From Desulfobacterales bacterium (GTDB lineage: Bacteria > Desulfobacterota > Desulfobacteria > Desulfobacterales > UBA5852), in the NCBI GenBank assembly GCA_963674755.2, contig CAXXVS010000002.1:1088001-1152000 (forward strand): DNA of 64,000 bases, in the 5' to 3' direction. This document shows positions 27,691 through 54,528 of this stretch, piece by piece; positions within the stretch are counted from its first letter, which is position 1, and each line of letters begins with the position of its first letter. The notes beneath the pieces were generated by a model. The model saw nothing but the letters and a program-made list of their open reading frames with translations, made no database searches and was not told the origin of the DNA. The position numbers were made by a program, and so were the translations under genes.

Positions 27691-27755
27691 TGAGGAGCCC
27701 GGACCGTCGCGCCAGCTATTCGCCGGGAGATCATTTTCGTGACATAGGGGCTATC

Positions 27756-29485: not shown

Positions 29486-30444
29486 TCGCCATCTGCATCG
29501 AATCCTCCCATGCCAAGGGGCTGGGGCATCTGTTTCGCGGCATCCACCTGGCCCGTTGTCTGGCGCGCCACCACCGGCGGCACATCATTCTGGTCAACCG
29601 TCATCCGCCTTCGATCCGACTTTTGGAAGCATCCGGGCTTCCCTTTATGATCGTCCCCCTGAATGCCGCACAAGAATGGGAACCGTCTGTCATCACCGAA
29701 CTTGGCATTGATCTCTGGATCAATGACCGGCTGGATACCTCTCGCCGGCATGCCGAACGGGTCAAGGCCTGCGGTGTGGCCCTGGCAACTTTTGACGACG
29801 CCGGCAACGGGGCGGCCTTGAGCGATCTGCACATCGCCCCGTTGGCCGGTTTCCGCCGCGCGCCATTGACGGGAGAAAGGCTGCTGACCGATCTGCGCTA
29901 CCTGATTCTTGACCCGGCCCTGTCCCCATATCGACGCCCCCGCGAGAAGATGAACCGGCTTCTGGTCACACTGGGCGGCAGCGACACCCACGCCGTTGTG
30001 ATCACGGTTGTGGACATGCTCACCCGGTTGGGTTGGGGTGCCACGATCCATAGCGGTCCCGGTTCCAAGTACGGCGACGACCTTAAACGCAGGTTGGGGA
30101 AAGCCTTTACACTGGCGTCCTCGGTACCGTCCATGGGCGCCCTGTATTGGGAACACGACCTGGCCATTACCGGCGGCGGCATCACGCCTTTTGAAGCGGC
30201 GGCCACCGGTCTGCCAACGGTGGTTATCGCCAATGAACCTTTCGAAATACCGACCGGAACTTTCTTGGCGGCCAAAGGGGCAGCCTGTTTTGCGGGGCAT
30301 CACGCCCGGCTTACATTTGACGGGCTTGACAACGCCCTTGCGGCGGCCGGGGAGCGATTGTGCGCAATGAGTGCCTGCGGCCTGTCAACCATCCCCCAAG
30401 ACGGGGTTGAGAATGTTTACCATGCCATTTGCCGATACTTATAA
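29482..30444 (+). CDS. PseG/SpsG-like GT-B nucleotide-sugar hydrolase
   Basis: GLGHLFRG, LVTLGGSD, GGITPFEAAATGLP. Confidence 0.8.
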   Translation: MIAICIESSHAKGLGHLFRGIHLARCLARHHRRHIILVNRHPPSIRLLEASGLPFMIVPLNAAQEWEPSVITELGIDLWINDRLDTSRRHAERVKACGVALATFDDAGNGAALSDLHIAPLAGFRRAPLTGERLLTDLRYLILDPALSPYRRPREKMNRLLVTLGGSDTHAVVITVVDMLTRLGWGATIHSGPGSKYGDDLKRRLGKAFTLASSVPSMGALYWEHDLAITGGGITPFEAAATGLPTVVIANEPFEIPTGTFLAAKGAACFAGHHARLTFDGLDNALAAAGERLCAMSACGLSTIPQDGVENVYHAICRYL

Positions 30445-31153
30445 CACCGCCGTCATCCATCAACCCGACTTCATGCCCTACCCCGGTTTCTTCCATCGGT
30501 TGCTGGACGCGGACCTGTTCGTCGTCCTGGATCATGTCCAGTTCATGCGCGGCAGCCGAAGCTGGCACCATCGGGACCTGATCAAAACCCCCCAGGGAAC
30601 GGCCTGGCTCACCGTGAGTGTCAAAAAAAACCGCAGAGATACCGCCATCAAGGATATTCTGCTTTCGGAGGCCGTGGATTGGCGCAGCAAACATCTACAC
30701 CTCCTCCTTCACCATTACCGCAAAGCGCCCTTCTTTGAGGAAATCTTCCCCTACGTCCAGAAACTTTATGCCTGGCCTTGCGATACCCTGGTCGAATTCA
30801 ATTTGGCTTCTATCCGCATGTTGTTGGATCTTTTCGCCGTGACCGTCAATATGGTTCACAGCAGCGTACTTGGGTCCACGGCCAAAGGCTGCGACCTGCT
30901 TGTGGATCTTTTACGGAAAGTAAAGGCCTCCCGTTACCTATCCGGCAACGGTGCCCGGGACTACTACCGGCCTGAGCCGTTTGAACAGGCCGGCATCATG
31001 GTTCACTGGCAAAAATACGAGCCTGTGGTTTATCCCCAGCGCTACACCGGCTTCATTCCCAATCTGAGCAGCATCGATATGCTGTTCAACTGCGGTATTC
31101 AGAATTCCAGGCAATTGCTGCGCAAACGGACGGAGAAAGGAAAGCGACCATGA
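30422..31153 (+). CDS. WbqC-family protein
   Basis: IHQPDFMPYPGFF, WLTVSV, YLSG, YPQ..F.PNLSSIDMLFN. Confidence 0.88.
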   Translation: MPFADTYNTAVIHQPDFMPYPGFFHRLLDADLFVVLDHVQFMRGSRSWHHRDLIKTPQGTAWLTVSVKKNRRDTAIKDILLSEAVDWRSKHLHLLLHHYRKAPFFEEIFPYVQKLYAWPCDTLVEFNLASIRMLLDLFAVTVNMVHSSVLGSTAKGCDLLVDLLRKVKASRYLSGNGARDYYRPEPFEQAGIMVHWQKYEPVVYPQRYTGFIPNLSSIDMLFNCGIQNSRQLLRKRTEKGKRP

Positions 31154-31950
31154 AAATTGTCGGCACCATTGAAGCCCGCATGGGCTCCAGTCGTCTCCCC
31201 GGTAAAACCCTCATGCCCATATACGGCGACAAAACCCTGCTCGAGTTGGTGGTGGCACGTTTTAGACGCTGTCACGAGGTCGATGCCGTGTGGGTCGCCA
31301 CCTCCCGGGAACCGTCCGACGACGCCATTGCCCGGTGGTGTGCCAGCCATGGCATAGCCTGTTTTCGGGGATCCGAAGCGGACGTTCTGGATCGGGTAAC
31401 GCGAACCGCCAGAGAAGCCTGCGCCGACGGCATCGTCCAGATGGGAGCGGATTCAGCTTACCTCGACGGTGCCCTGACCGATGAGCTGGTGGCCCGGTTC
31501 CGCACCAACCGCTATGACTACGTCTGCAACGACATGCGCTTGACCTATCCACTGGGGATCTACGGCCATGTGGTACGCACGGCCTGCCTGCAAGCCCTCA
31601 ACGAGCGCCGCGATCTTGATGCCCAAGACCGTGAAGACGTGGTGCGCCCCATCTGGGAGCATCCGGAACGCTATGCCATTTTGAGCTTGTCGGCCCCGCC
31701 CGGGCTGCACTGCCCCGAAATCCGGCTGACCATCGACTACTCCGAGGATTTGACGCTGGCACGGCAAATCTACCGTCATTTCGGCCGAACCGATTTTACC
31801 ACCCGGGATATTCTGGACCTCTACGCCCGCCAACCGGACCTGTTCCGCGAAACCCGGGGATTGATTCAACGGCAGGCCCCTTTTCTCAGTGCGGTGAGCG
31901 GGTATGAAACAGCGCCTGCTTCCCCATCGGGCCGGACGATGGCCGCATGA
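31150..31950 (+). CDS. Cytidylyltransferase 2 (SpsF-like)
   Basis: EARMGSSRLPGK, RGSEADVLDR, RLTIDYSED. Confidence 0.85.
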   Translation: MKIVGTIEARMGSSRLPGKTLMPIYGDKTLLELVVARFRRCHEVDAVWVATSREPSDDAIARWCASHGIACFRGSEADVLDRVTRTAREACADGIVQMGADSAYLDGALTDELVARFRTNRYDYVCNDMRLTYPLGIYGHVVRTACLQALNERRDLDAQDREDVVRPIWEHPERYAILSLSAPPGLHCPEIRLTIDYSEDLTLARQIYRHFGRTDFTTRDILDLYARQPDLFRETRGLIQRQAPFLSAVSGYETAPASPSGRTMAA

Positions 31951-32993: not shown

Positions 32994-34225
32994 GAACCAA
33001 ACCATTTCCGCCCTACAACCCGATCGGCCCGGAGGAAGCTGAAGCGGCCCGCCGCGTGGTGGCCGGCGGCATCTTATCCGATTTTATCGCCCGCGGGGGC
33101 GATCATTTTTGCGGGGGCCCACAGGTTCGCGAATTCGAATCGCGTTGGGCCGATTTCCATGGCGTCAAGCACGCCGTCTCGTTCAATTCAGCCACGTCGG
33201 GACTCATTGCGGCGCTGGGTGCCCTGGAGGTACTGCCCGGCGATGAGATCCTGGTGATCGGATACAGCATGTGCATTTCGGCAACCGTGCCGCTGTTTTA
33301 CGATGCCATCCCCGTCTTCGTGGATATTGAGCCGGACTACTACGGCATGGACCCGGCACACATCGAAGCGCACATAACACCGCGCACCAGAGTCATCCTG
33401 CCTGTAGATCTCTTCGGACAATCGGTCGACATGGATCGTATCAATACGATCGCCCGCAAGCATGGCCTCAAGGTGTTGAACGACGCCTCGCACGTCCCGG
33501 GCTGCCGCTATAGGGAGGGATTTGCGGGCACCTATGGTCATATCGGGGTGTTCAGCCTGAATCAACACAAGATCATCCATTGCGGTGAGGGAGGCGTGGC
33601 GGTTACCGACGATGACGACCTGGCCCTTCGACTCCAGTTGATCCGCAATCATGCCGAGGCGGTTGTCAGCGATATGGCCTACGGCAATCTGACCAACATG
33701 CTGGGAACCAATACCCGCATGGGTGAAGTGGAGGCCGCCATTGCCATCGAACAGCTCCGCAAGCTGCCCCGCCTGCTTGAACAGCGCATCCGCTTGTCGA
33801 CCTATCTAACGAAACGTCTATCGCGCCTGGAGTATCTGACGCCCCCAGCCGTGCGGCCTTCCAGCGAGCACGTATATTATCTTTATCCCATACGCTACCA
33901 TGCGGAGGCTACAGGGATCAGCCGCGCACGCTTCGTACGGAATTTGCGCACGCTCGGCATCCCCATCCACAAATTTGCCGAAGGCTATATCCGCCCCCTC
34001 TATCTCGAACCCATCTTTCAGCACCGGGACGCCCTTAAAAACGGCTATCCCTACAAGCTGCGGCCGGAATCGGAACGGCCACACTATTCAGAAGGTCTCT
34101 GCCCGGTTCAGGAGCGCTTGTATAGGGATGAAATGATCATAACCGCCTATAACTACCCGCCTCTCGAGATCTCCGACATGGAAGATGTCGTCAAAGCGTT
34201 TGAACGCGCGGGGTCGATGCCATGA
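32981..34225 (+). CDS. DegT/DnrJ/EryC1/StrS aminotransferase 2
   Basis: NSATSGL, DASH, FSLNQHKIIHCGEGG, IRNHAE. Confidence 0.9.
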   Translation: MDAVRTKPFPPYNPIGPEEAEAARRVVAGGILSDFIARGGDHFCGGPQVREFESRWADFHGVKHAVSFNSATSGLIAALGALEVLPGDEILVIGYSMCISATVPLFYDAIPVFVDIEPDYYGMDPAHIEAHITPRTRVILPVDLFGQSVDMDRINTIARKHGLKVLNDASHVPGCRYREGFAGTYGHIGVFSLNQHKIIHCGEGGVAVTDDDDLALRLQLIRNHAEAVVSDMAYGNLTNMLGTNTRMGEVEAAIAIEQLRKLPRLLEQRIRLSTYLTKRLSRLEYLTPPAVRPSSEHVYYLYPIRYHAEATGISRARFVRNLRTLGIPIHKFAEGYIRPLYLEPIFQHRDALKNGYPYKLRPESERPHYSEGLCPVQERLYRDEMIITAYNYPPLEISDMEDVVKAFERAGSMP

Positions 34226-35202
34226 GCCTTAACCATCTTGAAGCCTATAACCAGGACCTGCATGCCTATCTATTGGCGGTGGCATCCTATGCCCGTGAAC
34301 TTGGCACTCAAAACCTAACGTACCGTCCATGCCCCGTCTGTCGAGGAACCGATCTTTCCGGTTTCGCTCATAACGGATTTTTCAACTATGACCGCTGCGA
34401 TCAATGTGGGCTCGTTTTCATGAATCCCACCTTCCCTCCGGAACAAGTCAACGAAGGGTTTAAAGGGGAGGACGCTCTCCTGATGCAGTACTTCCAGCTT
34501 ATGATCAAATACAAGCAGCCGCTGCGTACCACCATCGAAGATCCCATGCAGGACGGGCAGCTAAAAGATATTTTTTCGTTTAAAAAGCAGGGACGCCTGC
34601 TCGATATCGGCTGTTCGGTGGGTGACTTTCTGCACAGGGCCAAACACTATTACGATGTCGAAGGAATCGAGGTTAATCCATATACCGCTGATGTAGCGGC
34701 CGATCATTTCAGAATCCACCGCGACTATCTGGGGAATCTTGCCTTGGGCAAAGACTACGATATTGTCACCTTGAACCAGATATTGTACGGCGTTCCTTCG
34801 CCTGTGGACTTATTGAATGAAATCCGTGCCGTGCTAAAGGAGGACGGTATCCTCTATGTCAACACGCCCAATGCTGACGCCTATGCGGTTCAGCTTTACG
34901 GCGGCCGCTGCAATCATCTTTACGGATATACCACTCAGCATGTTTTCAGCCATAGCGCACTGGCCAAACTGGCAGCCTGTTGCGGCTTTAAATTAGCTTC
35001 TTTCCGCACTGAATGGCTCGATATCTACTTGACGGATCTTTTAGTTTTCCTGGACGAACCGGATCATTTCATCCATCGGCGCAATGCCCAGGTACTAGAT
35101 TACGCGGACAGGATTCGCCGGGAGGAAGAACTGATTCGTCACATGAATTTGGAGCTTGGCCATCGGGGCAATTATCTCGTGGCCGTTCTGGTGAGACAAT
35201 GA
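34222..35202 (+). CDS. Class I SAM-dependent methyltransferase with N-terminal Cys4 motif
   Basis: CPVC...CDQC; LLDIGCSVG; TPN. Confidence 0.85.
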   Translation: MSLNHLEAYNQDLHAYLLAVASYARELGTQNLTYRPCPVCRGTDLSGFAHNGFFNYDRCDQCGLVFMNPTFPPEQVNEGFKGEDALLMQYFQLMIKYKQPLRTTIEDPMQDGQLKDIFSFKKQGRLLDIGCSVGDFLHRAKHYYDVEGIEVNPYTADVAADHFRIHRDYLGNLALGKDYDIVTLNQILYGVPSPVDLLNEIRAVLKEDGILYVNTPNADAYAVQLYGGRCNHLYGYTTQHVFSHSALAKLAACCGFKLASFRTEWLDIYLTDLLVFLDEPDHFIHRRNAQVLDYADRIRREEELIRHMNLELGHRGNYLVAVLVRQ

Positions 35203-36498: not shown

Positions 36499-36514
36499 TG
36501 GCATGTAAATTGCT
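36499..36514 (+). promoter_or_regulatory. sigma54 promoter, glycosylation operon 2
   Basis: TGGCAT-GTAAA-TTGCT in the only large intergenic gap of the island. Confidence 0.82.
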
Positions 36515-36606
36515 TTTCCTTGTCGCTGACCGGTTCATCTCTCAGGCCGGAACCGTACCGCAATATTCGCAGCGAAGAACGCTATCTGGCATTTAAAAGG
36601 GCTCAT

Positions 36607-37236
36607 ATGAATATCCTGGCAATCGGAGCGCATTTTGACGATATCGAACTCGGGTGCGGCGGAGCGCTGGCCAAACACGTTCATGATGGCGATGCAGTTT
36701 TTGCCTACGTGGCCACCGTCTCAGGTTTCACCAGTCATGACCACAGGGTCATCCGTACGAATGAGGTGGCACGCAAAGAAGGGCGCAGTGCCATGGAGGT
36801 CCTCGGCATCACCCTTTTCGAAGGCCGGTTTCCCACCCTGAAAATCGAGTTCTCCGAAGCGTTGAACGCTGATATCTTGGCCATTGTCGAAAAGCATCAT
36901 ATCGACAGAGTTTACACCCATTGGACAGGCGATATTCATCACGACCACCAGGCCGTGGCTCAGGCTTCGCTGCACAGCTGCCGGCATGTCCCCTGCCTTC
37001 TGATGTACCGCAGCAACTGGTACCACTCCCCGCACGATTTCCACGGGAATTTCTATGTCGATATAACCCCCTACTGGTCCATCAAGGTGAAATCAATCAA
37101 AGCTCATGCTTCCGAACTGGAACGCACGCGTCACAAATGGCTGAGCTTTTTTGAAAACGAGGCCGAAAATGCGGGGCAGCGCATCGGTGTTCGTTATGCG
37201 GAAATTTTCGAGGTGGTCAAATGGCTGGAAAGATAG
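36607..37236 (+). CDS. PIG-L/LmbE-family N-deacetylase
   Basis: GAHFDDIELGCGG (HxDD), DIHHDH (HxDH). Confidence 0.88.
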   Translation: MNILAIGAHFDDIELGCGGALAKHVHDGDAVFAYVATVSGFTSHDHRVIRTNEVARKEGRSAMEVLGITLFEGRFPTLKIEFSEALNADILAIVEKHHIDRVYTHWTGDIHHDHQAVAQASLHSCRHVPCLLMYRSNWYHSPHDFHGNFYVDITPYWSIKVKSIKAHASELERTRHKWLSFFENEAENAGQRIGVRYAEIFEVVKWLER

Positions 37237-37289
37237 CGAGCGGACCTACCCAGAGTTCAACTGAACCGTTTCGCTCGACCGGTACCGGT

Positions 37290-38339
37290 ATGGCGCCTGA
37301 TGTATTTAAAAGCGATTCAGGGCCGCTGATCATAGCCGGCCCCTGCAGTGCCGAAACGGAAGCTCAGGTTCTGGCAACGGCCTGCCAGTTATCGGAAATC
37401 GGGCGGATCGACATTTTCCGGGCAGGCTTGTGGAAGCCCCGCACCCGGCCCAATAGTTTTGAAGGGGTGGGCCAACAGGGACTGCCCTGGCTGAAAAAGG
37501 CGAAAGCCCTGACCCATTTAAAGACCGCTACGGAAGCGGCCAATGCGCATCATATCGAACACTGCTTGGAACAAGGGATCGATTTCATCTGGATCGGCGC
37601 ACGGACGACCGTGAATCCCTTCCTGATCGAGGACATCGCGGAAGCATTACGGGGTGCCGATGTCCCCGTTCTCGTCAAAAATCCCATCAATCCCCAGATC
37701 GATCTCTGGATAGGGGCGATCGAGCGTCTCTATCGAAAAGGCGTTCGGCAAATTGCCGCCGTTCATCGGGGTTTCAGCCACAGCGCCCCCGGCAAATTGC
37801 GCTACGACCCCGCCTGGATGATTCCCATCGAGCTCAAACGTCATTTGCCGCATATCCCTCTGATATGCGACCCGAGCCACATGGCCGGCCAACGGGAGCT
37901 TATAAAGCCTTTAGCCCAGATGGCACTCGATTTCGGGATGGAGGGTTTGATGATCGAAAGCCATGTCCATCCAGCCCAAGCCTTCAGCGATACGGCGCAG
38001 CAACTGGAGCCCGTGCAGTTAAAGCGTCTGCTGTCCGACCTGGTAGTCCGCCGTCCGGGGACGCAGGGCCATGGCATCGACCAGGCCCTGGATACGTTGC
38101 GAAACCAGATCAACCTGACGGATACGCAAATCATCAATGCGCTCAGCAAACGAATGGGGTTGGTCCGTGAAATAGGCCACCTCAAACGCACCCACAATAT
38201 TCCGGTTTTTCAGCTGGAGCGATGGGATGCGCTCCAGAATGAACGCATATCCCAGGGATGCCGGGCCGGACTGGAAGATTACTTCATCAAAGGCCTTTTT
38301 GACCTTATTCATGCCCATTCCGTCGAGGCGCAGTTCTAG
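37290..38339 (+). CDS. Bifunctional DAHP synthase (I-beta) / C-terminal AroQ chorismate mutase
   Basis: IAGPCSAE, WKPRT, WIGART, HRGF, CDPSH, IESH; C-terminus LRNQINLTD...KRM...IGHLK...QLERW; start 37290 or 37221. Confidence 0.9.
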   Translation: MAPDVFKSDSGPLIIAGPCSAETEAQVLATACQLSEIGRIDIFRAGLWKPRTRPNSFEGVGQQGLPWLKKAKALTHLKTATEAANAHHIEHCLEQGIDFIWIGARTTVNPFLIEDIAEALRGADVPVLVKNPINPQIDLWIGAIERLYRKGVRQIAAVHRGFSHSAPGKLRYDPAWMIPIELKRHLPHIPLICDPSHMAGQRELIKPLAQMALDFGMEGLMIESHVHPAQAFSDTAQQLEPVQLKRLLSDLVVRRPGTQGHGIDQALDTLRNQINLTDTQIINALSKRMGLVREIGHLKRTHNIPVFQLERWDALQNERISQGCRAGLEDYFIKGLFDLIHAHSVEAQF

Positions 38340-38369
38340 TGGGCGCACGTTGTCTGAAAGGAAACGCTT

Positions 38370-39083
38370 ATGACCTCCGTTGGTGACACCATCGAATCCG
38401 GCAATGCCCGCTGGTCGTTTGGCGGCAGTGTTTGCGACATATTTGATCAACACGTGCGCAAATCGGTCCCCCTTTACGATCTAGGTCATTCCCTCGTCTG
38501 TCAGCTCAGTGATTTTTTTATCTACGAGAACGCGGTCTGTTACGAGTTGGGATGTTCCACCGGCGAGCTGCTGATTCAGCTTGCCTCGCGGAACGCCGAC
38601 AAGGCGGGGGCACGCTTTATCGGCATCGATAAAGAAGCAAACATGATCCAAAAGGCGGTCGACAAAAGCAGGGATCTTACCAATATCCAATTCGTTTGCG
38701 ACGATGTCCTACACCATGAATACGAGAAAGCCGACATGATCGTGGCCTATTACACGATCCAATTCATCCGCCCGGCGAAGCGTCAGACGCTGTTCGATAC
38801 GGTCTATCAGGCCTTGAATTGGGGCGGCGCCTTTCTGCTCTTCGAAAAAGTGCGCGGCCCCGACGCACGTTTTCAGGACATCATTTCCACCATGTACAGC
38901 GACTATAAAATCGAGCAGGGATATTCGGAAGCCGAGATCGTCAATAAAACACGGAGCCTGAAAGGCGTTCTCGAACCGTTTTCCACCCAGGGGAATCTGG
39001 ACCTGCTCAGCCGCGCCGGCTTCAAGGACTATATGACCCTGATGAAATCGATGTGTTTCGAAGGGTTTTTTGCGATTAAGTAG
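38370..39083 (+). CDS. CmoA-like (carboxy-S-adenosylmethionine synthase family) SAM-binding protein
   Basis: WSF...FDQHVRKSVPLY, YELGCSTG, TIQF, FEK, GYSEAEI..K..L..VL, L..AGF; parallels E. coli CmoA along its length. Confidence 0.78.
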   Translation: MTSVGDTIESGNARWSFGGSVCDIFDQHVRKSVPLYDLGHSLVCQLSDFFIYENAVCYELGCSTGELLIQLASRNADKAGARFIGIDKEANMIQKAVDKSRDLTNIQFVCDDVLHHEYEKADMIVAYYTIQFIRPAKRQTLFDTVYQALNWGGAFLLFEKVRGPDARFQDIISTMYSDYKIEQGYSEAEIVNKTRSLKGVLEPFSTQGNLDLLSRAGFKDYMTLMKSMCFEGFFAIK

Positions 39084-39095
39084 GATGAGCCCGCC

Positions 39096-39926
39096 ATGCT
39101 GATCGAATACGCCAATTTGAAATTCGGCTACCATGATGAAGGCTGGGACCTGGCTTTCCGGGACCGGGATATCGATCAATACCGTTTCCGACTGCTGATA
39201 AACGATCATACGATTCACTCGGTTTTCAAAGAAATCTACATGATCGTTGCGGATTTGCGGGCCGCCGGGCGGCCGGTTACCATGCTGGACGTGGGTTGCG
39301 GCACCGGCCACCAAATTGCCAGCCTCGCCTATCTTTGTGACCGCAGCGTCGGATTTGATATTTCGCCGGCCGTCATCGAAAACAATCGCTGTCTGAATAC
39401 GACGACCGAATATATCCTAGGCGACGCTCTCCGCCACCCGTCCTTCAAAGAGCCCTTCACGGTTGTTCTCATGGCGGGTGTTCTCTACAGCATCGACGGG
39501 CGTCGCGAAACGCATTTGCGCATCCTGCGGGAGGTGCACCGCGCCCTGGCGGATGAGGGCACCTTCGTTTTTTATCACCGCGGGTATCTCAGTCTGGTCA
39601 AATACCTGGATTTGCGCATCAGGGCCCTGCGGGACCGCATCATGAAAAACCAAAAGCGCGACTATGCCATGTGCTATTTCGATGATCGCTACATTCGTTC
39701 CTTGTGCGATCAGGTCGGGTTCGAAATTATTCGTTCGCGCAAATCCGACTTCGCCTACTATCTGTGCAATACGATTTTCAAAAAAATCCTGACGAGGCCG
39801 TCGCCCAACGTCTGGGACAGTTTCGCCAATCTGAACCTATTGGGGCGGTTTGTTTACATCGTCGCCAAATATGCCATGCCGTTTCTGTGCGCACGCAGTT
39901 CCACTTTCATCCTGAAAAAAGCGTGA
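39096..39926 (+). CDS. Class I SAM-dependent transferase
   Basis: MLDVGCGTG, GFDIS, LREVHRALADEG. Confidence 0.85.
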   Translation: MLIEYANLKFGYHDEGWDLAFRDRDIDQYRFRLLINDHTIHSVFKEIYMIVADLRAAGRPVTMLDVGCGTGHQIASLAYLCDRSVGFDISPAVIENNRCLNTTTEYILGDALRHPSFKEPFTVVLMAGVLYSIDGRRETHLRILREVHRALADEGTFVFYHRGYLSLVKYLDLRIRALRDRIMKNQKRDYAMCYFDDRYIRSLCDQVGFEIIRSRKSDFAYYLCNTIFKKILTRPSPNVWDSFANLNLLGRFVYIVAKYAMPFLCARSSTFILKKA

Positions 39927-39951
39927 TCGCAGGAAGGTTGTAAACGGCCGC

Positions 39952-41046
39952 ATGACCATTGGGAGACGTATTTTGGACACTTTGCAAATTCTCGAGAAAA
40001 ACCGTTCGCTACACCATCGGCATGCAGGCCAGCGCTGCTTTCTGATCGGCAACGGACCTTCGATCGCCGCCCAAGATCTGGTCGCGCTACGTCATGAGAT
40101 CAAAATCTGTTTCAACAGCTTCTACAAACATCCGCACTGCCAAGAAATCGCCCCCGATTACTGGATGGCGGCCGATCCCGCGATTTGGCAAAATAAAAAC
40201 CAATTTCTTCTTCCGCTCTTGGAAGCCGTGGAATCCGCAGGCATCGTGACCAAGCTTTTTTTCCCCCTTTGGGGTTCGGTCAAGGTCGGCGGCAGCCGCT
40301 TCCTCGATATCCATTACTTCTCCTATGATCAGGCAAGCCGCCATTTGACTACCAACATCGATTTCTGCACCGGTATCCCCCCCTTTGCCCAGAACGTGAT
40401 GCTCGTGGGTATGATGCTGGCTTTCTACCTGGGCTGCAATCCGATCATCATCCTCGGTGCCGATCATACCTGGTGGGAGTGGACCCGTGACGAATACGCC
40501 GGCAAAGAAACGCCCCATTTTTTTAAAAACGACTATAGTCCCATATCGAAACGCTATTCTTTTGATATCCTCCAGTCCACCATTGCCGTACAGCGCTATC
40601 AATACCGGCAACTTCAGAAATATGCCGCTCTTCGCGGTTTCGAGATATACAATGCAACCCCCCACTCCGCCCTGGATATCTTTCCCCGCATCGATTTCGA
40701 CACCCTGCGCTTCGCTGCTCACAGCCCCTATGTGGACCACGGCCATCCGTCCTGCTCGCCGGCGCCGGCCCAAGAGCTTGGCGCCGCGGCCCTCGGTCTG
40801 ATCGGGGCGGGACGCTATGTGCCGGCTTTGGCTCTTATCGATGAAGCACGGCGGCGGAACATCAACCGCTCCTCGAAGGTGCAGGGTCTGGATTATCTGC
40901 GCTCCCTGTGCCTGGCAGGCTTGGGTGAAAATCACGAAGCGCTCATCGCGGCCCACCAGGATTTTATCAGCAACCCCGCCAATCGCGGAAATGCGGGAAA
41001 TCTTCTGCGCGCCTTGGGGGATCGCAGCGTCAACCTTGCCGATTAA
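39952..41046 (+). CDS. Maf/DUF115-like protein with C-terminal TPR-like helices
   Basis: HAGQRCFLIGNGPS, AADP, AFYLGCNPIIILGAD, IYNAT. Confidence 0.75.
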   Translation: MTIGRRILDTLQILEKNRSLHHRHAGQRCFLIGNGPSIAAQDLVALRHEIKICFNSFYKHPHCQEIAPDYWMAADPAIWQNKNQFLLPLLEAVESAGIVTKLFFPLWGSVKVGGSRFLDIHYFSYDQASRHLTTNIDFCTGIPPFAQNVMLVGMMLAFYLGCNPIIILGADHTWWEWTRDEYAGKETPHFFKNDYSPISKRYSFDILQSTIAVQRYQYRQLQKYAALRGFEIYNATPHSALDIFPRIDFDTLRFAAHSPYVDHGHPSCSPAPAQELGAAALGLIGAGRYVPALALIDEARRRNINRSSKVQGLDYLRSLCLAGLGENHEALIAAHQDFISNPANRGNAGNLLRALGDRSVNLAD

Positions 41047-41106: not shown

Positions 41107-44100
41107 ATGATCATCGCCGGAAACAGCCATGTCACCCTATTTCGAGGACGCCTCCGGAACCGTGCCAACGACAGCATTGTCAGCGTAAGGTGGGTCGGGG
41201 CGCTCACCGCCGATCATTTCCTTAACAACCATTCAGCGGCACGGGCCATCCAAGCCGCCTTCGCGTCAACCGACGGCTGGAAGATTTTATCGATCGGTAT
41301 GCATGACATCTTCGGGTTGTGCCGGGCCTACTCCCAGAACGTTTACCGGCAAGCCTGCAACCAATTGCTGAAACGCTATCAGGACCTATTTGGGACCTTT
41401 GGCCAGGCGGGACGCTTTGCCTGGTTGATATCGCCCCAGCAGTTGGAGGGCACCGCCACCGCTTCTCTGTCTCCGGGAAAGGTTTTCGAAATCTCGGAAG
41501 AATTCAACCACCTGACGACAAAATGGTGCCGGCAGCGCCATATCGCGGTCATTAACCCGCTAAAGGCCTTGCGGCGGCCGGATGGCACACTCAACGCCAA
41601 GTTCGTTCAGCAAGACGGGATTCATCTCAACGATCAGGCGCTTGCGCCCTACGTCAAGGAATTGAAGGCGCAGACCGGCCTCGACCTTGCCATCGAAACT
41701 TTGCCGGCGAGCGCATGCCATCGTGTGAAGGCCCGGAATGAGCCGGAGTCCCTGGCGCTGCTGATCGCCGACGAATTGCAGCTGGGCTGGGACCATTCCA
41801 AATGGCCCTACGGTGAAAGGCAGGATTTTGAAGACGACCTTATCGCCCATGTCCAGCGCGGCTTCGATCAAAAGGGCCAATCCGTCACGCTGGACCGAAC
41901 CACATGCTACAATGCGGACAATGCCTTAAATTCAGCCGATCTGGTATCGCTCTATAACCACGCCACCGATTGCTTGGGCGTGGAACTTGCCTTCGATGTA
42001 AACATCCGCGAGCTGAACACGGTCGAAAAAATCGCCGATTTTCTGTTGGCGCGGAAACCGCTTTCCAAAAACGATTTTTACGAAACCCTTTCCAGGGATA
42101 GCGGCAATGCCCTGCGACAATCGGAAACCTTTATCGCCGACCGGAAGCTCGCGGCCCTCGATGAGGAACGCTATAGCCGTCTGAGGGAAATCATTCATCA
42201 TCTGACCGGGGGAGCCCCTTGTCAGTATGGCGTCGTCTATTTTTGGATAGCCCTCATCGAAGCCGAAAGGGGCAACTACGGGTGGGCCTGTCAATTGTTG
42301 GCGCTGGCCGAATCGCCGCACATCAGCTTTCCGTTGTGCTCTTCACGCGTGTCTTTCTATCGTCAACTCTGGCACGCCAAGTCCTGTCCGCCGCCCCCGG
42401 ATACAAGCGCAGCCGATCGGAAGGCGCCCCTGGCGACGGTCTATGCCGACGATCTCCATGACCTGGTGTCGCACTGGTCCCGGCAGGTCGAATCGCTGCG
42501 GTCAACCATCGGGCATCTTTACGTCGTTGCCGCCGATGACGGTACCCAACGTTTGCTCGAGATGTTTCCCCGCTTGCAGACCGTTGATCTCTTTGTGCCG
42601 CCCGCGGCGCGCCACCGTCAGATGGCTGAACGTTATCGCCATGATCCGCGCGTCAGGGTCTGGCCCTTTATGCTGTCGGATCGAACAGGGCATGAACTCA
42701 TTTCCTATGCCGAACAAAAGGGGAATCATAGGGTATCGGCCGGTGCTCCCAATACAGCCTGGCCCGCAGACATTCTTTCGACGGAAACCGTCACATGGGC
42801 GGATTTCCTCGACACGCACGCCGCGGAGCCTCCGGACTTGCTGATCTGTTCCGTCCCAGGACTGTCGGAGCGGCTCTGCGACGCCATTCCGGCCGCGGTC
42901 ATGGAAAATCTCAAGGCGGCATGTCTGGCGACTTCCCGGCTGGTAGCCCACCTTCCCGCGGCCCAAACTCCGGCCGACAGCAAGCCGGCCGCCAGGCCTT
43001 TTGATCTTTTCGGTCTGGTGCGTTCGTCCGGGCTTCAGCGCCAGGCCGTCACGGCGCTCTATATCAATCCTCGATCGGCGTCGACCGTCTATCAGAACCA
43101 GAGGATCCTCGACCGCCTCATGGCCAGTGCGGCGGCTGGAGCGCCCCTCTTGACGACACAGAATACGGTTCCGGCCGAATTTGACGAATGCGCGGCAGGA
43201 CTCACGGAAGAGTTGTATGGTTTGGGGCGACGGCTCCAAAAGGACCAGAAGAGCGAGGACGCCCTCTTCGTCTTCAATCAGGTCATGGACACCGATCCCC
43301 ATCATGCCGATGCCCTCTATCAGATTGGGGCGCTTCTCAATCGGGCCGGAAAGGTTAGCAAGGCCCTGCCCTATTGGGAAGCGGCATTCAACCAGCGGCC
43401 CTCCGACCGGATGATGGCCCTGGCCTACGCTCAGGCCTTGTGGTCTTCCGGACGCCAGGAGCAGGCGCAAGCGGTGTGCCGGCGCTATGCGGCCCGGAAT
43501 TGGCGCCTTGACGATCGTTGCGACGATCTCCTGGCGGATATCGCCTATCCCCATGGTCTTCCCAATGAGGACGAATCGGCGGCCCTGCACAACGTCCGGA
43601 GCCTAGCCGACCAAGGACAGCTGGGACAAGCCTATCAGGCGCTGTCCGAATGGGTGGCCGAACACCCCGATAGAGCCCAGGGCCATAACGATCTGGGTGT
43701 GTTGGCATGCCGTCGGGGAGACGACGAAAAGGCCCTAAATCACTATGCACGTGCCGTCGAGCTCGAACCGCATAACCGTACCTACCAGAAGAACCTGGCG
43801 GATTTTCGCCTTGCCCGCCAGGGCGACGTCGAAGCCGCCTTGCGAACATACACCGCCCTGCTCGCTGACGATCCCCGTGACACCGAAGTTTTGTATGCCC
43901 TTGCCCAAATCTGCCGCCAGGTTGGCAACGCCGATGATGCGCAGGAATTTCTCGCCCGCATTCTCGACATCGATCCCGACCATGGTGCCGCACGCGAGGC
44001 GCTGACCGCGATACGCGATGACGCCCCCGGCTGTCACCGCCTTGAGGCGGACGCTGCATCGCGGCCTCCCGTCGCCCCAGTGTCGGCTCCCGCCCCCGTC

Positions 44101-47100
44101 CTCATTGCAACCAGCATCGCGCCGCATTCGCTGGAAATTCAGCAAAAAGCGGTCAAGTCCTGGAAGGACCTGGGTTTCGATGTCGTCTCGCTGAATTCGC
44201 CGGAAGAAATCGCCGGTTTGAAGGACAGCTTCCCGGATATCGCTTTTCATGCGGTGGACCGCACCAGTCAAGCGCATTTCGGGAAACCCTATATCTACTT
44301 CGATGATGTCATTGCCCATTTTAAAGGCGTTGACCGGCCCGTCTACGGGATTGTCAACTCGGACATCCACCTGAAGGCCGACGACAATATCCTGGCCTTT
44401 TTGCAGGCCGAGGCGAACCAGTCCCTCCTCTTCGGCCATCGCTTGGATGTCACCTCCCTCTCCTCTAGCCAGGGCGACTTCTACCGGAACGGCTATGATT
44501 TTTTCTTTTTCGACAGATCCCTTTTGGGGCTGTACCCCGATTCGATCCTCAGTCTGGGCGTTACGTGGTGGGATTATTGGACCGTGTTGATTCCGGCGCT
44601 GAATGGATTCCCCGTCAAAAAGCTGGTGTCGCCCTTGGCCTACCACCTTGAGCACCCGAATCGTTGGGACCGCAAACAGTGGATCCATGTCGGGCGCCTG
44701 ATCTCCGCTTATTTGAAAGCAGAGGATATCGACCAGGGCCGGACATGGCCGGCGGATTCCCCCTGGTTACTGTTTCGTGAAATTCTCCAGAACGGGGCGG
44801 CGGTCAAATGCCTCCAAAAACCTTTCCAGGATCGCACGCGGCGGCGCTTCGCATACGGCGACAACTTTACCCTCAATATTTGCATCCTTGATTTTATAGA
44901 GCAAATTTGCCAAAAGGTTACCCTGCCCTGGGACGATGAATTGATACACCATGGCGACACCACCAAGGGGCCTAATTTTTCCCCGGATTTTTTTGACGCG
45001 CATCACCTCCCGACACCGAAGACGGTACCGCCGCCCCTGATGCAGGATTGTGCTCTGCGCACCCATCAGGCCCAAAGATTGTATCGCGAGGGGCGGGGGC
45101 CAGAAGCGCAGGCCATCCTGGAATCGATTATCCATGAGATCCCCGGCCATCCCCCCGCCTGCAACCTTCTTGGCGCGATGGCCTGGGAGGCAGGATCGAC
45201 CGATACGGCCCTGCGTCACTTCCACAACGCCCTGCGCTACAATCCTTACGACCGGCCGACGATCATTAACTGTTCGGCGGCCCTCGCCCGTGTGGGGCGA
45301 CCCGAGGAAAGCCGCCAGATCTATGCCGCCTATCTGCGTTTCAATCCGGGGGATATCGAAATCGGACGCTGGTGCCGCCGACTGGAAGCCGGCCAAAACC
45401 TCCAGCCGCCGGACCAGTTCACGCTCCACCAGCCGGGAGACCTGTCGCTATTGCCCATCCTCATCTACCAGATGGGCAAGGTGGGCTCCACCTCGCTTGT
45501 CGACTCGATCGCGAAACTGGGCCTGCCGGTCAAACACGTCCACACCCTTTCCTGGCCCGGCATCCTCCATGCCGAAAAAGCTTTCCGGGATGAAACGAAG
45601 CGCGAACTGCCCTCCTGGTTGACACACTATCGCGGTATCCGCACGCACATCGACCGCTTGGGTCAATCCGCCCACTGGAAGATCATCACGCTAGTCCGGG
45701 ATCCGCTCAAACGCTACATTTCCGATCTGTTTCAGAACCTGGACCGCTATTTTCCGCATCTGAACGATCTGCCCAATGAGGACCCGGCCCCCATCAGGGA
45801 GCATATCCTGCGCTACCTCGAGGAATTCGACGAGGCGCAAGACCATGCCTGCAGCTGGTTTGATAAGGAACTTCTGGGCGTATTTGGGGTCGATCTCCTG
45901 GCTTCCCCCTTCAATACGGCAAAAGGGTATCAGCGCTACCAGACCAAACATGCGGACATCCTTCTTATACGTCTGGAAGATCTGGAGTCCTGCGCTGCCG
46001 AAGCCATGGCCGATTTTCTTGCAATCGACACCTTTCAACTTGCGCATTCCAATGTCAGTGCCACTAAGCCATATGCCGCTCTTTATCGACGGCTGAATGA
46101 CGAATTGCGCTTCGATCGATCCCTCTTGGACAGATTTTACAGCAGCCGGTTGGCACAACATTTTTATACGGCCTCCGAAATTGAGGCTTTCAAAGCTCAA
46201 TGGTGTTCTCAACCCTCTATGCAAGACGCTGTTGTCTCGCAAACCCCACCCCGGGTTTCGGCGGTCGTATCGACCTATGCATCGGCGCGTTTCATTGAAG
46301 GCCGTCTGCAGAATTTGGTCGATCAGACGTTATTCCAAAAAGGCGGCCTGGAGATCATCGTCATCGATTCAAGTTCGCCCGAGGATGAAGGCGCCATCGT
46401 GGAACGCTTTGCGGCACGACATCCGAATATTTTTTATCTCCGAACCGATGAAAGAGAAACCGTATACACCGCATGGAACCGCGGCATTGAAATGGCACGC
46501 GGCACCTATTTCGTAAACGCCAACACCGATGATCGGTTTTCAACGAACGCCTTGGAGCGAATGGCGGACGCGCTCGATTCCCATTGTGAATATGACGCCG
46601 TTTACGGGAACTGGGTCGTAACCCGCATTCCCAACGACAGCTTCGACAGCGATGCCCCTAAGCGCCTTTTCATCTATCCCGAATTTGATCCGGGATTGTT
46701 TTTCTATCTCCAAATAACGAGCCATGCCAATTTCGTGCGGCGGTCCGTATTCGACTCTATCGGCGGGTTTGACGGATCCTACACCGTTTTCGGTGACCGT
46801 GAATTTATGCTGCGGTTTTCCGCCAGTGGTCACAAAGCAATGAAACTGGAAACCATCGTCGGACTCTACCTGGAAAATCCTACCAGCGTCGAGAGGGCCA
46901 ACAAAGAAATCGGCCTCCAAGAGTGCCGGGCCTTGTATGACCATTATCTCGAAGCCGACCGGTTTGCGACACTCATGGGTTTCGGAAAAGGAACATCCCC
47001 TGCCATCCTTTCCAAGGAATACACGCGGATCGGCTGCTTGGGGATGGGACTCTACGATATCGACGGCAAGTCCCTTCATGCCCTGGGCTCACCGGCACGA

Positions 47101-51552: not shown

Positions 51553-51803
51553 CTGTCCGTTCTAAATTTCTTCGACGCTGTGCGGTATGCCCGTCGCGAT
51601 ATCCGCTATGATTTGCAGCTGCCACAGATGGATGAAGCCGCTTCCGTTGTTTCGGGAGTGGCTTTGCCTTTAGATGCCTGCCTTTTGAGTCGGGCCGTCC
51701 CTGACAATGGCCGCCCCATCAGTGGCATTTTTTTGGATAGTGAGCCTTTTCCCTATAATAGCTTAACACGGGGGCCTTCTGTGTTGCCCCCTGGGTATAA
51801 GCA

Positions 51804-54411: not shown

Positions 54412-54501
54412 GGTGTGTTGCTCCTTTCTAGAGGGTTTTCCCGGTCCTTCTGGCCAGGGAAATAGGGTTTATCCTTCTGGTAAACGGCGCCGTTAAGTCT
54501 G

Positions 54502-54528
54502 TTATCGGCCTTACTAAAAGAGACTTTA
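54502..54528 (-). promoter_or_regulatory. sigma28 promoter for flagellin 1
   Basis: Minus strand TAAA-N15-GCCGATAA, perfect consensus. Confidence 0.9.

What the first reader, a model, noticed from the sequence alone, without database searches (positions are those of the whole stretch)
36499..41046. Candidate prephenate / carboxy-SAM flagellar glycan-modification system
Seen: one sigma54 promoter (36499) heads a tightly packed run of PIG-L deacetylase, DAHP synthase-chorismate mutase fusion, CmoA-like protein, class I SAM transferase, Maf-like gene and the giant GT. Established: E. coli CmoA makes carboxy-SAM from SAM and prephenate, and CmoB transfers the carboxymethyl group to tRNA; chorismate mutase produces prephenate. 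Inference: a dedicated prephenate-supplying enzyme placed directly before a CmoA homologue in a flagellin glycosylation operon, with no recognisable cmoB or tRNA context, suggests carboxy-SAM is used to carboxymethylate a sugar. One route would be the deacetylase freeing an amine and 39096 (or 34222) acting as carboxymethyltransferase. I am not aware of such a glycan pathway being described. Caveat: in my manual alignment the Arg that binds the carboxylate in E. coli CmoA (QKRSML) corresponds to NKTRSL, i.e. shifted by one, and NFTLQF is YYTIQF.
Basis: partly seen in the sequence, partly recalled or inferred. Interest (0 to 1): 0.92.

Follow-up and report, generated by a model that had tools for sequence, protein, structure and literature searches.

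The report
Carboxy-SAM synthase in flagellar glycan operon
A flagellar sugar-decoration gene cluster carries its own maker of carboxy-SAM, a rare carboxymethyl donor known so far only from tRNA, peptide-antibiotic and phage-DNA chemistry, next to an enzyme linked to its co-substrate prephenate, which suggests that this bacterium puts carboxymethyl groups on its flagellar glycan.

Summary
The gene run is real. A sigma54-type motif at 36499 precedes PIG-L deacetylase, a DAHP synthase-chorismate mutase fusion, a CmoA homologue, a class I methyltransferase, a weak Maf-like gene and a 3481-aa TPR/GT2 protein. The run lies between flagellar genes and two flagellin genes.

The CmoA homologue scores below NCBI's CmoA cut-off. 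It belongs to a large clade about 60% identical across many phyla. That clade is the only CmoA homologue in 16 of 16 CmoB-bearing genomes checked, and it sits beside CmoB and TrhO in 4 loci. It is therefore very probably a true carboxy-SAM synthase. The shifted Arg also occurs in CmoB-linked members, so it does not disqualify the protein.

The window's genome has no CmoB. Its DAHPS-CM is an extra, divergent paralogue. The same pair occurs in five other genomes from three lineages, but in only 3 of the 80 clade loci sampled. In 26 of 76 loci without an adjacent CmoB, another methyltransferase gene lies within two ORFs. NeuB lies nearby in 8 of 80.

Carboxymethylation of a flagellar nonulosonic-acid glycan is the best reading, but it is inferred. 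The acceptor and the transferase (39096 or 34222) are unknown. I found no paper linking carboxy-SAM to glycans. Earlier notes of this scan recorded chorismate mutase-CmoA pairs in phages.

The parts
36499..36513 (+). sigma54-type -24/-12 promoter motif TGGCAT-N5-TTGC
   Evidence: 5 such motifs in the window against 0.54 expected, 0 of 100 shuffles reach 5. The motif is intergenic. Function is not tested.
36607..37236 (+). PIG-L/LmbE-family de-N-acetylase. The ORF is open from TTG 36520, but the likely start is ATG 36607.
   Evidence: PF02585 at 61 bits, match from residue 33 of the long ORF. BshB1-like, 68 bits, below cut-off; start codon reading.
37221..38339 (+). Extra, divergent type I-beta DAHP synthase fused to a C-terminal AroQ chorismate-mutase domain
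   Evidence: the GPCS..E, KPRT, GAR, DPSH, E.H and SD motifs are kept against 1zco; the genome holds 4 other DAHP_synth_1 genes and 2 other CM_2 domains; the CM domain keeps the residues matching EcCM R11, R28, K39, R51, S84 and Q88, but has D48->Q and E52->W.
38370..39083 (+). Carboxy-SAM synthase candidate, a member of a large divergent CmoA clade
39096..39926 (+). Rare class I methyltransferase, first candidate carboxymethyl transferase
   Evidence: Methyltransf_11; only 13 proteins at E<=1e-10 in 5.8 billion; 1 of 401 genomes of the class; generic methyltransferase fold.
39952..41046 (+). Maf-like (MptE-like/DUF115) protein, weakly supported
   Evidence: PF01973 at 24.5 bits, below the 34.6 cut-off; no NCBIfam or PDB sequence match.
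41107..51552 (+). 3481-aa TPR protein with three GT2 stretches and an NKWYS domain
51710..51726 (+). Terminator-like hairpin with a T run after the giant gene; possible operon end
   Evidence: The overall count of such sites is not above the shuffles.
34222..35202 (+). Zn-ribbon plus Methyltransf_23 methyltransferase in the upstream unit, second candidate transferase
   Evidence: 25% identity over 241 aa (E 4e-13), with the same two CxxC motifs, to the methyltransferase that flanks the clade gene in L039. Cluster mates flank it in L037 and L088.
27672..31950 (+). Nonulosonic-acid core genes: NeuB, two CMP-sugar cytidylyltransferases, a PseG-like gene and WbqC
53596..55656 (-). Two flagellin genes (53596-54411 and 54718-55656), the presumed glycosylation targets
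   Evidence: Flagellin_N.

Best explanation
A sigma54-driven operon inside a flagellin glycosylation island makes and uses carboxy-SAM.

Step 1 is inferred from homology and motifs. The extra DAHPS-CM raises flux into the shikimate pathway and converts chorismate to prephenate. At the least, it couples DAHP synthesis to the prephenate level.

Step 2 is inferred from comparative genomics and I rate it about 0.75-0.8. The CmoA-clade protein 38370 converts SAM plus prephenate into carboxy-SAM, as E. coli CmoA does.

Step 3 is inference and I rate it about 0.5. The genome has no CmoB, so a methyltransferase-fold enzyme of the island transfers the carboxymethyl group. The first candidate is 39096, directly downstream; the second is the Zn-ribbon methyltransferase 34222. 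The acceptor would be a nonulosonic-acid-type sugar or its nucleotide precursor. One possibility is an amine freed by the PIG-L deacetylase.

Step 4 is inferred from the gene setting. The Maf-like protein and/or the giant TPR-GT2 protein then place the modified sugar on flagellin.
For: Gene identities, spacing and promoter motif come.

The clade acts as the CmoA of CmoB-bearing genomes:
- CmoB (PF08003) is present in 24 of 80 genomes that carry the clade gene (13 of 50, 11 of 30).
- In the 13 CmoB-positive genomes, the clade gene is the only TIGR00740 hit at E<=1e-20 and none exceeds the cut-off. The same holds for all 30 of 30 genomes tested.
- In 4 loci (L019, L049, L053, L072) the clade gene lies next to CmoB (E 1e-125 in L019). 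TrhO lies beside it in 3 of them (L049, L053, L072).
- In a cyanobacterial sample, a CmoA homologue was found in 15 of 16 CmoB-positive genomes and 0 of 20 CmoB-negative ones. Three of the 15 are clade members at 57-58% identity to 38370.
- In the tree, the CmoB-adjacent rows nest among methyltransferase-adjacent rows.

Conservation is about 60% identity across phyla, with 61 invariant columns in 23 sequences. This fits an enzyme of universal small substrates.

The link to prephenate:
- A DAHPS-CM of the same subfamily (45-51% identity) lies directly upstream of, or within 3 genes of, the clade gene in L017, L020, L087/L098, L099 and L100.
- It is an extra paralogue in this genome.
- In genus g12 the pair coexists with CmoB in 3 of 3 genomes. 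This ties the pair to carboxy-SAM use independently of any glycan.

Partner transferases:
- A second methyltransferase-family gene lies within two ORFs in 30 of 80 loci, 4 of which are CmoB.
- These partners belong to at least 7 unrelated families.
- The clade gene occurs in 0 of 80 control loci centred on generic methyltransferases.
- L037 and L039 repeat the set NeuB, 39096-like methyltransferase, clade gene, 34222-like methyltransferase and CMP-transferase.

Published precedent exists for a carboxy-SAM synthase working with non-CmoB transferases: MccS/MccB and TglE/TglF (PMC10491745, sections 2.1.3 and 2.5.1, passages read) and phage CmoA/CmoX (PMC12783734, abstract and passages read).
Against: - No chemistry was tested.
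- 38370 scores below both NCBIfam CmoA cut-offs (158.9 against 193.3, and 121.6 against 285).
- E. coli R199 and N132 are not conserved in position.
- The AF2 model is poor (pLDDT below 50) exactly over residues 163-230, which hold the K-T-R-S-L motif. The reach of R195 could not be judged.
- 50 of 80 clade loci show no methyltransferase partner within two ORFs. About 12 loci (Hyphomonadaceae, Sphingobium) have amine oxidase, GT2, LPG_synthase_TM and deacetylase genes instead.
- Some clade members (L020, L042) have neither Arg.
- DAHPS-CM adjacency is rare (3 of 80). Its subfamily also occurs in 4 genomes with no CmoA-like gene.
- The CM domain has D48->Q and E52->W, so it could be mainly regulatory.
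- PIG-L homologues accompany the clade in 0 of 80 loci.
- 39096 has no detectable CmoB-like features and only a generic fold.
- The genome is 97.4% complete, so a missed CmoB cannot be fully excluded.
Confidence: 0.5

Rival explanations
1. 38370 makes carboxy-SAM, but the acceptor is not a sugar. The acceptor could be flagellin side chains (for example lysines), another flagellar protein, a small molecule, or tRNA through an unrecognised transferase.
For: The synthase assignment does not depend on the acceptor. Relatives with the same DAHPS-CM/CmoA pair have CmoB and may use the pair for tRNA. 39096 has only a generic methyltransferase fold, with peptide N-methyltransferases such as CypM among its top structural matches. 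That flagellin lysine methylation exists in other bacteria is recalled, not tested here.
Against: No CmoB is present in this genome. The operon sits among nonulosonic-acid genes, and the clade recurs in NeuB/CMP-transferase, GT2 and Wzt/Wzx clusters of non-flagellated phyla such as Cyanobacteriota and Bacteroidota.
Confidence: 0.2
2. 38370 has lost carboxy-SAM synthesis and is an ordinary SAM methyltransferase acting on the sugar. In that case the neighbouring DAHPS-CM is unrelated to it.
For: It scores below the CmoA family cut-offs. R199 and N132 are changed. 50 of 80 clade loci lack a second methyltransferase within two ORFs.
Against: The same motif state occurs in CmoB-adjacent clade members. 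Glycan-linked and CmoB-linked rows interleave in the tree. About 60% identity across phyla despite unrelated glycan contexts is unusual for an acceptor-specific sugar methyltransferase. A DAHPS-CM partner recurs.
Confidence: 0.12
3. The DAHPS-CM serves another end, and its place before 38370 is not a prephenate supply line. It could make an aromatic or shikimate-derived substituent for the glycan, or act only as a feedback-regulated DAHP synthase.
For: The subfamily occurs in 4 genomes without a CmoA-like gene, once beside KdsD-like, PFK and Kdo-transferase genes. CM residues D48 and E52 are replaced in all 10 subfamily sequences aligned. A CM_2 domain lies near the clade gene in only 2 of 30 genomes.
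Against: Direct or near adjacency to the clade gene occurs in this genome and in five others from three lineages. No other prephenate- or aromatic-using enzyme was recognised in the operon. Earlier notes of this scan report chorismate mutase-CmoA pairs in phages (not checked here).
Confidence: 0.1

Closest known systems
E. coli CmoA/CmoB (carboxy-SAM synthase and tRNA U34 carboxymethyltransferase; PDB 4GEK, 4IWN, 4QNV)
   Same: 38370 matches CmoA at E 8.5e-32 and about 30% identity. CmoA/YecO are the top Foldseek matches (TM about 0.65). The SAM-site positions Y39, G-C-S 64-66, D89 and D117 are kept. Clade members partner with CmoB in other genomes.
   Different: It scores below the TIGR00740 cut-off. 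R199 aligns with T, with Arg one position later, and N132 aligns with Y. There is no CmoB in this genome and no tRNA context. The gene lies in a sigma54 flagellar glycan operon.
Phage CmoA/CmoX/CmoY 5-carboxymethylcytosine system (Synechococcus phage S-B43; PMC12783734)
   Same: A CmoA homologue is teamed with a non-CmoB methyltransferase-fold enzyme that uses carboxy-SAM on a new acceptor class. The carboxylate then serves as a handle.
   Different: The acceptor there is DNA cytosine. Phage CmoAs are below 40% identical to 38370. No C5-cytosine methyltransferase is present here. Amide ligation is not evident in the window, although AsnB-like genes flank the clade gene in 7 other loci.
MccS/MccB-CTD (Bacillus microcin C-like) and TglE/TglF (3-thiaglutamate), as reviewed in PMC10491745
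   Same: A carboxy-SAM synthase is encoded in a biosynthetic cluster together with a dedicated carboxymethyl transferase.
   Different: Those acceptors are a peptidyl-nucleotide and a peptide thiol. Here the setting is nonulosonic-acid and flagellin glycosylation. I did not compare sequences with MccS or TglE.
Type I-beta DAHP synthase fused to an AroQ chorismate mutase (for example PDB 5J6F, 3NVT; 2D8D for the CM domain)
   Same: The metal-site and PEP-site motifs of DAHPS are kept, and a fused CM_2 domain is present.
   Different: The CM domain here is C-terminal. NCBIfam scores are far below cut-off (181 against 335). D48->Q and E52->W are changed. It is an extra paralogue placed in a glycan operon.
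Maf-dependent nonulosonic-acid flagellin glycosylation islands (Campylobacter, Aeromonas, Clostridium)
   Same: NeuB, CMP-sugar synthetase, aminotransferase, methyltransferase and Maf-like genes lie next to flagellins.
   Different: No described island that I could find carries a CmoA homologue or a DAHPS-CM (literature searches).

Membership tests
CmoA, carboxy-SAM synthase (NCBIfam TIGR00740 / PRK15451) | HMM score at or above the curated cut-off | tested here: not met
   158.9 bits against 193.3 (TIGR00740), and 121.6 against 285 (NF011995). Both are full-length matches and the best family by far (E 1.7e-46).
CmoA, carboxy-SAM synthase | CmoA-type fold with solved CmoA/YecO structures as nearest neighbours | tested here: met
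   the top 6 Foldseek hits are 1im8, 4gek and 4iwn (E about 1e-14, TM 0.62-0.67). The model has mean pLDDT 72 and is poor over residues 163-230.
CmoA, carboxy-SAM synthase | SAM-site residues of E. coli CmoA (Y39, G64-C-S66, D89, D117; residue list recalled from UniProt, not from a call) | tested here: met
   these align with Y36, G61-C-S63, D87 and D112. Y36, G61 and S63 are invariant in the 23-sequence clade alignment, and C62, D87 and D112 are conserved in at least 90%.
CmoA, carboxy-SAM synthase | Arg199, which contacts the carboxylate of carboxy-SAM, and Asn132 | tested here: not met
   R199 aligns with T194 and Arg is at 195; N132 aligns with Y127. The same state occurs in CmoB-adjacent clade members L049 and L053. 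A third CmoB-linked type and phage CmoAs lack Arg at both positions. The feature may therefore not define the wider family.
CmoA, carboxy-SAM synthase | Works with CmoB: co-occurrence or adjacency in genomes | tested here: inconclusive
   Met for the clade: it is the sole CmoA homologue in 13 of 13 plus 3 CmoB-bearing genomes, and is adjacent to CmoB in 4 loci. Not met for this genome, which has no CmoB.
CmoA, carboxy-SAM synthase | Forms carboxy-SAM from SAM and prephenate | not testable with these tools
   Needs an enzyme assay or complementation of a cmoA deletion.
CmoB / Methyltransf_9 (PF08003) carboxymethyl transferase | Family HMM match for 39096 or 34222 | tested here: not met
   no PF08003 hit. 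34222 gives TIGR00452 at 19.1 bits against 275, and 39096 gives none. BLASTP of 39096 against E. coli CmoB finds only the core methyltransferase motifs (E 2.6e-4).
Type I-beta DAHP synthase | Pfam DAHP_synth_1 match plus metal ligands (Cys, His, Glu, Asp) and the KPRT and GAR motifs | tested here: met
   130.4 bits against 25.5; alignment to 1zco shows GPCS..E, KPRT, IGAR, DPSH, E.H and SD. The NCBIfam equivalog cut-offs are not reached.
AroQ chorismate mutase (CM_2) | Pfam match and the EcCM active-site set R11, R28, K39, D48, R51, E52, S84, Q88 (residue list recalled) | tested here: inconclusive
   64.3 bits against 27; 6 of 8 residues are kept. D48->Q and E52->W are invariant in 10 subfamily sequences.
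Maf (motility accessory factor, MptE-like/DUF115) | PF01973 at or above the gathering score | tested here: not met
   24.5 bits against 34.6 (E 2.6e-5). No NCBIfam or PDB sequence match.
PIG-L/LmbE deacetylase | PF02585 at or above the gathering score | tested here: met
   61 bits against 28.2.

The most novel reading that the evidence does not exclude
Carboxy-SAM may be a widespread second alkyl donor for bacterial surface chemistry, not a tRNA speciality. The supporting observations are these:
- A CmoA clade that NCBI's CmoA model misses occurs across at least nine phyla.
- It lies mostly in genomes where no CmoB was found (56 of 80 sampled).
- It is teamed with at least seven unrelated methyltransferase families.
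- These sit in nonulosonic-acid, O-antigen (Wzt/Wzx) and lipid-type clusters.

If this holds, carboxymethylated sugars would include the flagellar glycan of this organism, and the carboxylate might serve as a handle for amidation by the AsnB-like neighbours. Such sugars would be an undescribed class of glycan modification. DAHPS-CM or chorismate mutase genes would be recruited repeatedly to feed the pathway.
Probability: 0.4. Interest if true: 0.9.

Novelty: new variant of a known kind. Interest (0 to 1): 0.78.

Why it matters
Carboxy-SAM has four described uses: tRNA cmo5U, 3-thiaglutamate, a microcin C-like antibiotic and phage DNA. A glycan use would add a new acceptor class and a new negatively charged sugar substituent. 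That could affect flagellar filament surface charge, phage and immune recognition, and the mass-spectrometric annotation of unknown glycan masses.

The comparative data also show that the curated CmoA model misses at least two CmoA lineages that partner with CmoB. Many genomes are therefore annotated as lacking carboxy-SAM synthesis, or these genes are named plain methyltransferases.

The prediction is directly testable with a simple LC-MS assay, a cmoA complementation and flagellin glycopeptide mass spectrometry.

Tried and rejected
- Structure test of the Arg position: the AF2 model of 38370 from the 23-row alignment A1 has pLDDT below 50 over residues 163-230, so it says nothing about R195.
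- Fold of 39096 (pLDDT 81): Foldseek gives only generic class I methyltransferases. PDB sequence searches of 39096 and 34222 were uninformative.
- Metagenome scan with the 39096 alignment: the pattern hit generic methyltransferases only (best partial identity 30-43%). I used those loci only as a rough control (0 of 80 carry the clade gene).
- 39096 relatives in 401 genomes of the class: only the own genome matched, so no co-occurrence test was possible.
- Phage CmoAs as experimental proxies: none belongs to the clade, all being below 40% identity. S-B43 itself was not among the rows shown, so I used S-CRM01 and a Staphylococcus phage for motif comparison only.
- Expression: no RNA holder was listed for 36400-41100, and no reads were laid.
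- Careful tree search: it did not finish within 300 s, so the quick IQ-TREE tree was used. One row (L074) was dropped because my extraction gave a fragment.
- Literature: 4 searches found no paper joining carboxy-SAM or CmoA with flagellin, nonulosonic acids or polysaccharides. The 'CmoA' in PMC5072692 and PMC6976573 is an unrelated Paenibacillus motility protein. The library covers open-access papers only.
- Idea rejected: that the DAHPS-like domain is a KDO8P-type synthase making a glycan sugar. It carries the DAHPS-type KPRT motif and matches DAHPS far better than KDO8PS.

Full report
**1. What is in the sequence**

ORF listing and profile searches show a same-strand run of genes:
- 36520-37236: PIG-L.
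- 37221-38339: DAHP_synth_1 with a C-terminal CM_2 domain.
- 38370-39083: CmoA-like.
- 39096-39926: class I methyltransferase.
- 39952-41046: weak MptE-like/Maf hit (24.5 bits against a 34.6 cut-off).
- 41107-51552: 3481 aa with TPR repeats, three GT2 stretches and an NKWYS domain.

The gaps between genes are -16, 30, 12, 25 and 60 nt.

Upstream lies a nonulosonic-acid gene set:
- a GDP-mannose-dehydratase-like gene at 22963;
- DegT at 24696;
- a formyltransferase at 25895;
- a radical SAM/SPASM gene at 26611;
- NeuB at 27672;
- two cytidylyltransferases, a PseG-like gene and WbqC;
- a GFO oxidoreductase and a second DegT;
- the methyltransferase at 34222;
- a polysialyltransferase-like gene at 35013.

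The island lies between flagellar structural genes (FliP to FliF, 504-13084), a sigma54 activator (14417-15874) and two flagellin genes (53596-54411 and 54718-55656).

The motif TGGCATGTAAATTGC at 36499 is one of 5 exact TGGCAY-N5-TTGC sites in the window. The expected number is 0.54, and 0 of 100 shuffles reach 5. Because the -12 element ends 7 nt before the TTG at 36520, the PIG-L gene more likely starts at the in-frame ATG at 36607. A terminator-like hairpin follows the giant gene at 51710.

**2. Is 38370 a carboxy-SAM synthase?**

It is a full-length CmoA homologue: TIGR00740 E 1.7e-46, and 4gek E 8.5e-32. It scores below both curated cut-offs. E. coli R199 aligns with T194 with Arg at 195, and N132 aligns with Y127.

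The protein is not an oddity. A word-indexed search returned 6288 proteins at E<=0.001, and the best 120 are 60-94% identical. A genome scan found at least 536 encoding stretches. The best 80 loci come from Pseudomonadota, Cyanobacteriota, Bacteroidota, Omnitrophota, Actinomycetota, Spirochaetota, Verrucomicrobiota, Gemmatimonadota, Bdellovibrionota and others. A 23-sequence alignment has 61 invariant columns.

The key test was CmoB, which needs carboxy-SAM:
- CmoB (PF08003) is present in 24 of the 80 genomes: 13 of 50 and 11 of 30.
- In the 13 CmoB-positive genomes, and in all 30 of 30 genomes tested, the clade gene is the only TIGR00740 hit at E<=1e-20. None passes the cut-off.
- In L019, L049, L053 and L072 the clade gene lies next to CmoB. 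TrhO (UPF0176 plus rhodanese) lies beside it in L049, L053 and L072.
- In an independent sample of 201 cyanobacterial genomes, 17 have CmoB. A CmoA homologue was found in 15 of 16 further CmoB-positive genomes and in 0 of 20 CmoB-negative ones.
- Of those 15, one is canonical, three are clade members (57-58% identical to 38370), and eleven are a third type at 34-38% identity.

CmoB-adjacent clade members carry K-R-R-S-L-K-G, K-T-R-S-L-K-G or K-N-R-S-L-K-G. The third type and phage CmoAs that sit next to DNA C5-methyltransferases have no Arg at either position. N132 is Y, I or L in all of these. R199 and N132 are therefore not requirements of the wider, CmoB- or CmoX-partnered family.

A quick maximum-likelihood tree of 84 rows sets the clade apart from E. 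coli and phage CmoAs with 99% SH-aLRT support. It nests the four CmoB-adjacent rows inside a group of methyltransferase-adjacent rows. The window's protein sits on an unresolved basal branch. The AF2 model's nearest solved folds are CmoA/YecO, but the model is unreliable over residues 163-230.

I rate carboxy-SAM synthase at about 0.75-0.8. This is inference from comparative genomics. No clade member has been assayed as far as I could find.

**3. The DAHPS-CM**

The DAHPS domain keeps the metal and substrate motifs of type I-beta DAHP synthases. The genome already has three high-scoring DAHP_synth_1 genes at about 275 bits, one of them followed by a CM_2 domain. It also has a probable KDO8P synthase at 215 bits and a third CM_2 domain in a 411-aa frame. 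The window's copy, at 131 bits, is therefore an extra and divergent paralogue.

Homologues of the same subfamily (45-51% identity) lie directly upstream of the clade gene in three genomes of one genus of the same order: L098 (which has the same match statistics as L087), L099 and L100. A further homologue lies divergently adjacent in a Gemmatimonadota MAG (L020), and another lies three genes upstream in a Bdellovibrionales MAG (L017).

All three genomes of that genus also have an unlinked CmoB. There the pair most simply feeds tRNA modification. This ties DAHPS-CM to carboxy-SAM synthesis independently of any glycan.

The association is not general:
- It holds for 3 of 80 clade loci.
- A CM_2 domain lies near the clade gene in only 2 of 30 genomes.
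- Four genomes of the phylum have the subfamily without any CmoA-like gene, once beside KdsD-like, PFK and Kdo-transferase genes.

The CM domain keeps six of eight EcCM active-site residues. D48->Q and E52->W are invariant in the ten subfamily sequences aligned. It may be a weaker catalyst or mainly a prephenate- or chorismate-sensing domain. Either role links DAHP synthesis to the prephenate pool that CmoA drains.

**4. What uses the carboxy-SAM?**

The genome has no CmoB, and the clade gene is rare and accessory among relatives. It was found in 4 of 201 genomes of the order including this one, and in 0 of 3 of the same genus.

I called ORFs with my own simple script. For L037-L089, annotations were carried over from cluster representatives, and three edge ORFs were dropped. 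On that basis a second methyltransferase-family gene lies within two ORFs of the clade gene in 30 of 80 loci, 4 of which are CmoB. The partners fall into at least seven families with little or no mutual similarity: Methyltransf_11, two Methyltransf_23 types, Methyltransf_25, FkbM-like, CARME-like and PEMT. This is the pattern expected of one cofactor synthase serving many acceptor-specific transferases.

Other neighbours recur:
- NeuB in 8 of 80 loci.
- CMP-sugar cytidylyltransferases and GT2 genes.
- Wzt with its C-terminal domain, and Wzx.
- Sulfotransferases and polysaccharide deacetylases.
- AsnB-like amidotransferases in 7 loci.

L037 and L039 repeat the window's logic: NeuB, a 39096-like methyltransferase, the clade gene, a 34222-like Zn-ribbon methyltransferase and a CMP-transferase.

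The methyltransferase 39096 is very rare. Only 13 proteins match at E<=1e-10 in 5.8 billion, and only 1 of 401 genomes of the class carries it. Its fold is generic.

The transfer of a carboxymethyl group to a nonulosonic-acid-type sugar is therefore inference. So is the idea that the PIG-L enzyme exposes the acceptor amine; PIG-L homologues accompany the clade in 0 of 80 loci.

Evidence against a universal two-enzyme model: 50 of 80 loci show no nearby methyltransferase. About 12 loci from Hyphomonadaceae and Sphingobium have amine oxidase, GT2, LPG_synthase_TM, PMT_2 and deacetylase genes instead.

**5. Comparison with what is known**

I read passages of two papers for the published uses of carboxy-SAM. 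PMC10491745 (sections 2.1.3 and 2.5.1) covers CmoA/CmoB, TglE/TglF and MccS/MccB-CTD. PMC12783734 (abstract and passages) covers phage CmoA/CmoX/CmoY.

Four full-text searches found no paper that joins carboxy-SAM or CmoA with flagellin, nonulosonic acids or polysaccharides. The library holds open-access papers only.

Two earlier notes of this scan describe chorismate mutase genes beside CmoA/CmoX in phages. They are an independent analogy for a prephenate supply. I did not check them.

**6. Verdict**

The carboxy-SAM synthase and its link to a prephenate-pathway enzyme are well supported by comparative genomics. Glycan carboxymethylation is the best but untested reading, at about 0.5. The case is a new variant of a known kind, and the experiments that would decide it are simple.

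Noticed in passing
L194-L204 (cyanobacterial genomes G665, G704, G755, G710, G671, G677, G641, G650, G695, G734, G656): A third CmoA lineage, 34-38% identical to 38370 and about 30% to E. coli CmoA. It has YYTLQF and no Arg at or next to the R199 position. It is the only CmoA homologue in 11 CmoB-positive cyanobacteria and is adjacent to CmoB in at least three (G665, G755, G710). It also falls below the TIGR00740 cut-off.
   Followed up: partly
L010, L016, L017, L018, L027, L035, L043: An AsnB-like glutamine amidotransferase lies directly beside the clade gene, often together with a Methyltransf_23 gene. It could amidate a carboxymethyl group, by analogy with the phage CmoY ligase, or it could be an unrelated sugar amidotransferase.
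   Followed up: no
L064, L078, L033, L015: In cyanobacteria and Omnitrophota the clade gene sits with a sulfotransferase and a methyltransferase (FkbM-like in L033, L064 and L078) in polysaccharide clusters. A Wzt ABC-transporter gene with a Wzt_C domain lies nearby in L064, L078 and L015. This suggests a terminal cap on an ABC-exported O-polysaccharide.
   Followed up: no
L025, L028, L029, L042, L046, L047, L050, L051, L055, L059, L069, L080: Hyphomonadaceae and Sphingobium share a conserved cluster: PMT_2, GT2, amine oxidase, clade gene, GT2, LPG_synthase_TM, amine oxidase and polysaccharide deacetylase. No second methyltransferase is present. The layout resembles an Arn-type lipid or glycan modification system. 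Some of these clade members lack Arg at both positions (L042 has K-T-G).
   Followed up: no
window 48362-50663: Identical short matches recur exactly 2025 bp apart inside the giant TPR/GT2 gene (48362/50387, 48382/50407, 48484/50509, 48638/50663). This indicates an internal tandem duplication of a module about 2 kb long.
   Followed up: no
window 53919 and 55041: The two adjacent flagellin genes share an identical 15-mer 1122 bp apart. They are probably recent paralogues.
   Followed up: no
window 3746(-), 15955(-), 17518(+), 22781(+): Four further exact sigma54-type motifs occur in the window. The one at 22781 lies just upstream of the first sugar gene (22963), so the glycan island may be under flagellar sigma54 control in at least two units.
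   Followed up: no
window 25895-27690: A formyltransferase-like gene and a radical SAM/SPASM gene lie directly before NeuB. This hints at further unusual tailoring of the nonulosonic acid.
   Followed up: no
L023, L032, L036, L038, L060 (Luminiphilus and relatives): The clade gene lies between a Mur-ligase-domain protein of about 810-1117 aa (with a weak methyltransferase-like stretch in L023) and a PAP2 phosphatase. These genomes also have an unlinked CmoB.
   Followed up: no
L108 (G128:C49): A DAHPS-CM of the window's subfamily sits between a KdsD-like SIS+CBS gene and a phosphofructokinase, near a Kdo transferase. The genome has only one other DAHP_synth_1 gene, so here the subfamily may be the housekeeping DAHP synthase.
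   Followed up: partly
model m08864c9c8d47 (39096): Among the Foldseek hits, the highest query TM-score (0.57) is to 4htf, an E. coli SAM-dependent methyltransferase. I recall, without having checked it, that this is SmtA/CmoM, the enzyme that methylates cmo5U. This is a lead only.
   Followed up: no
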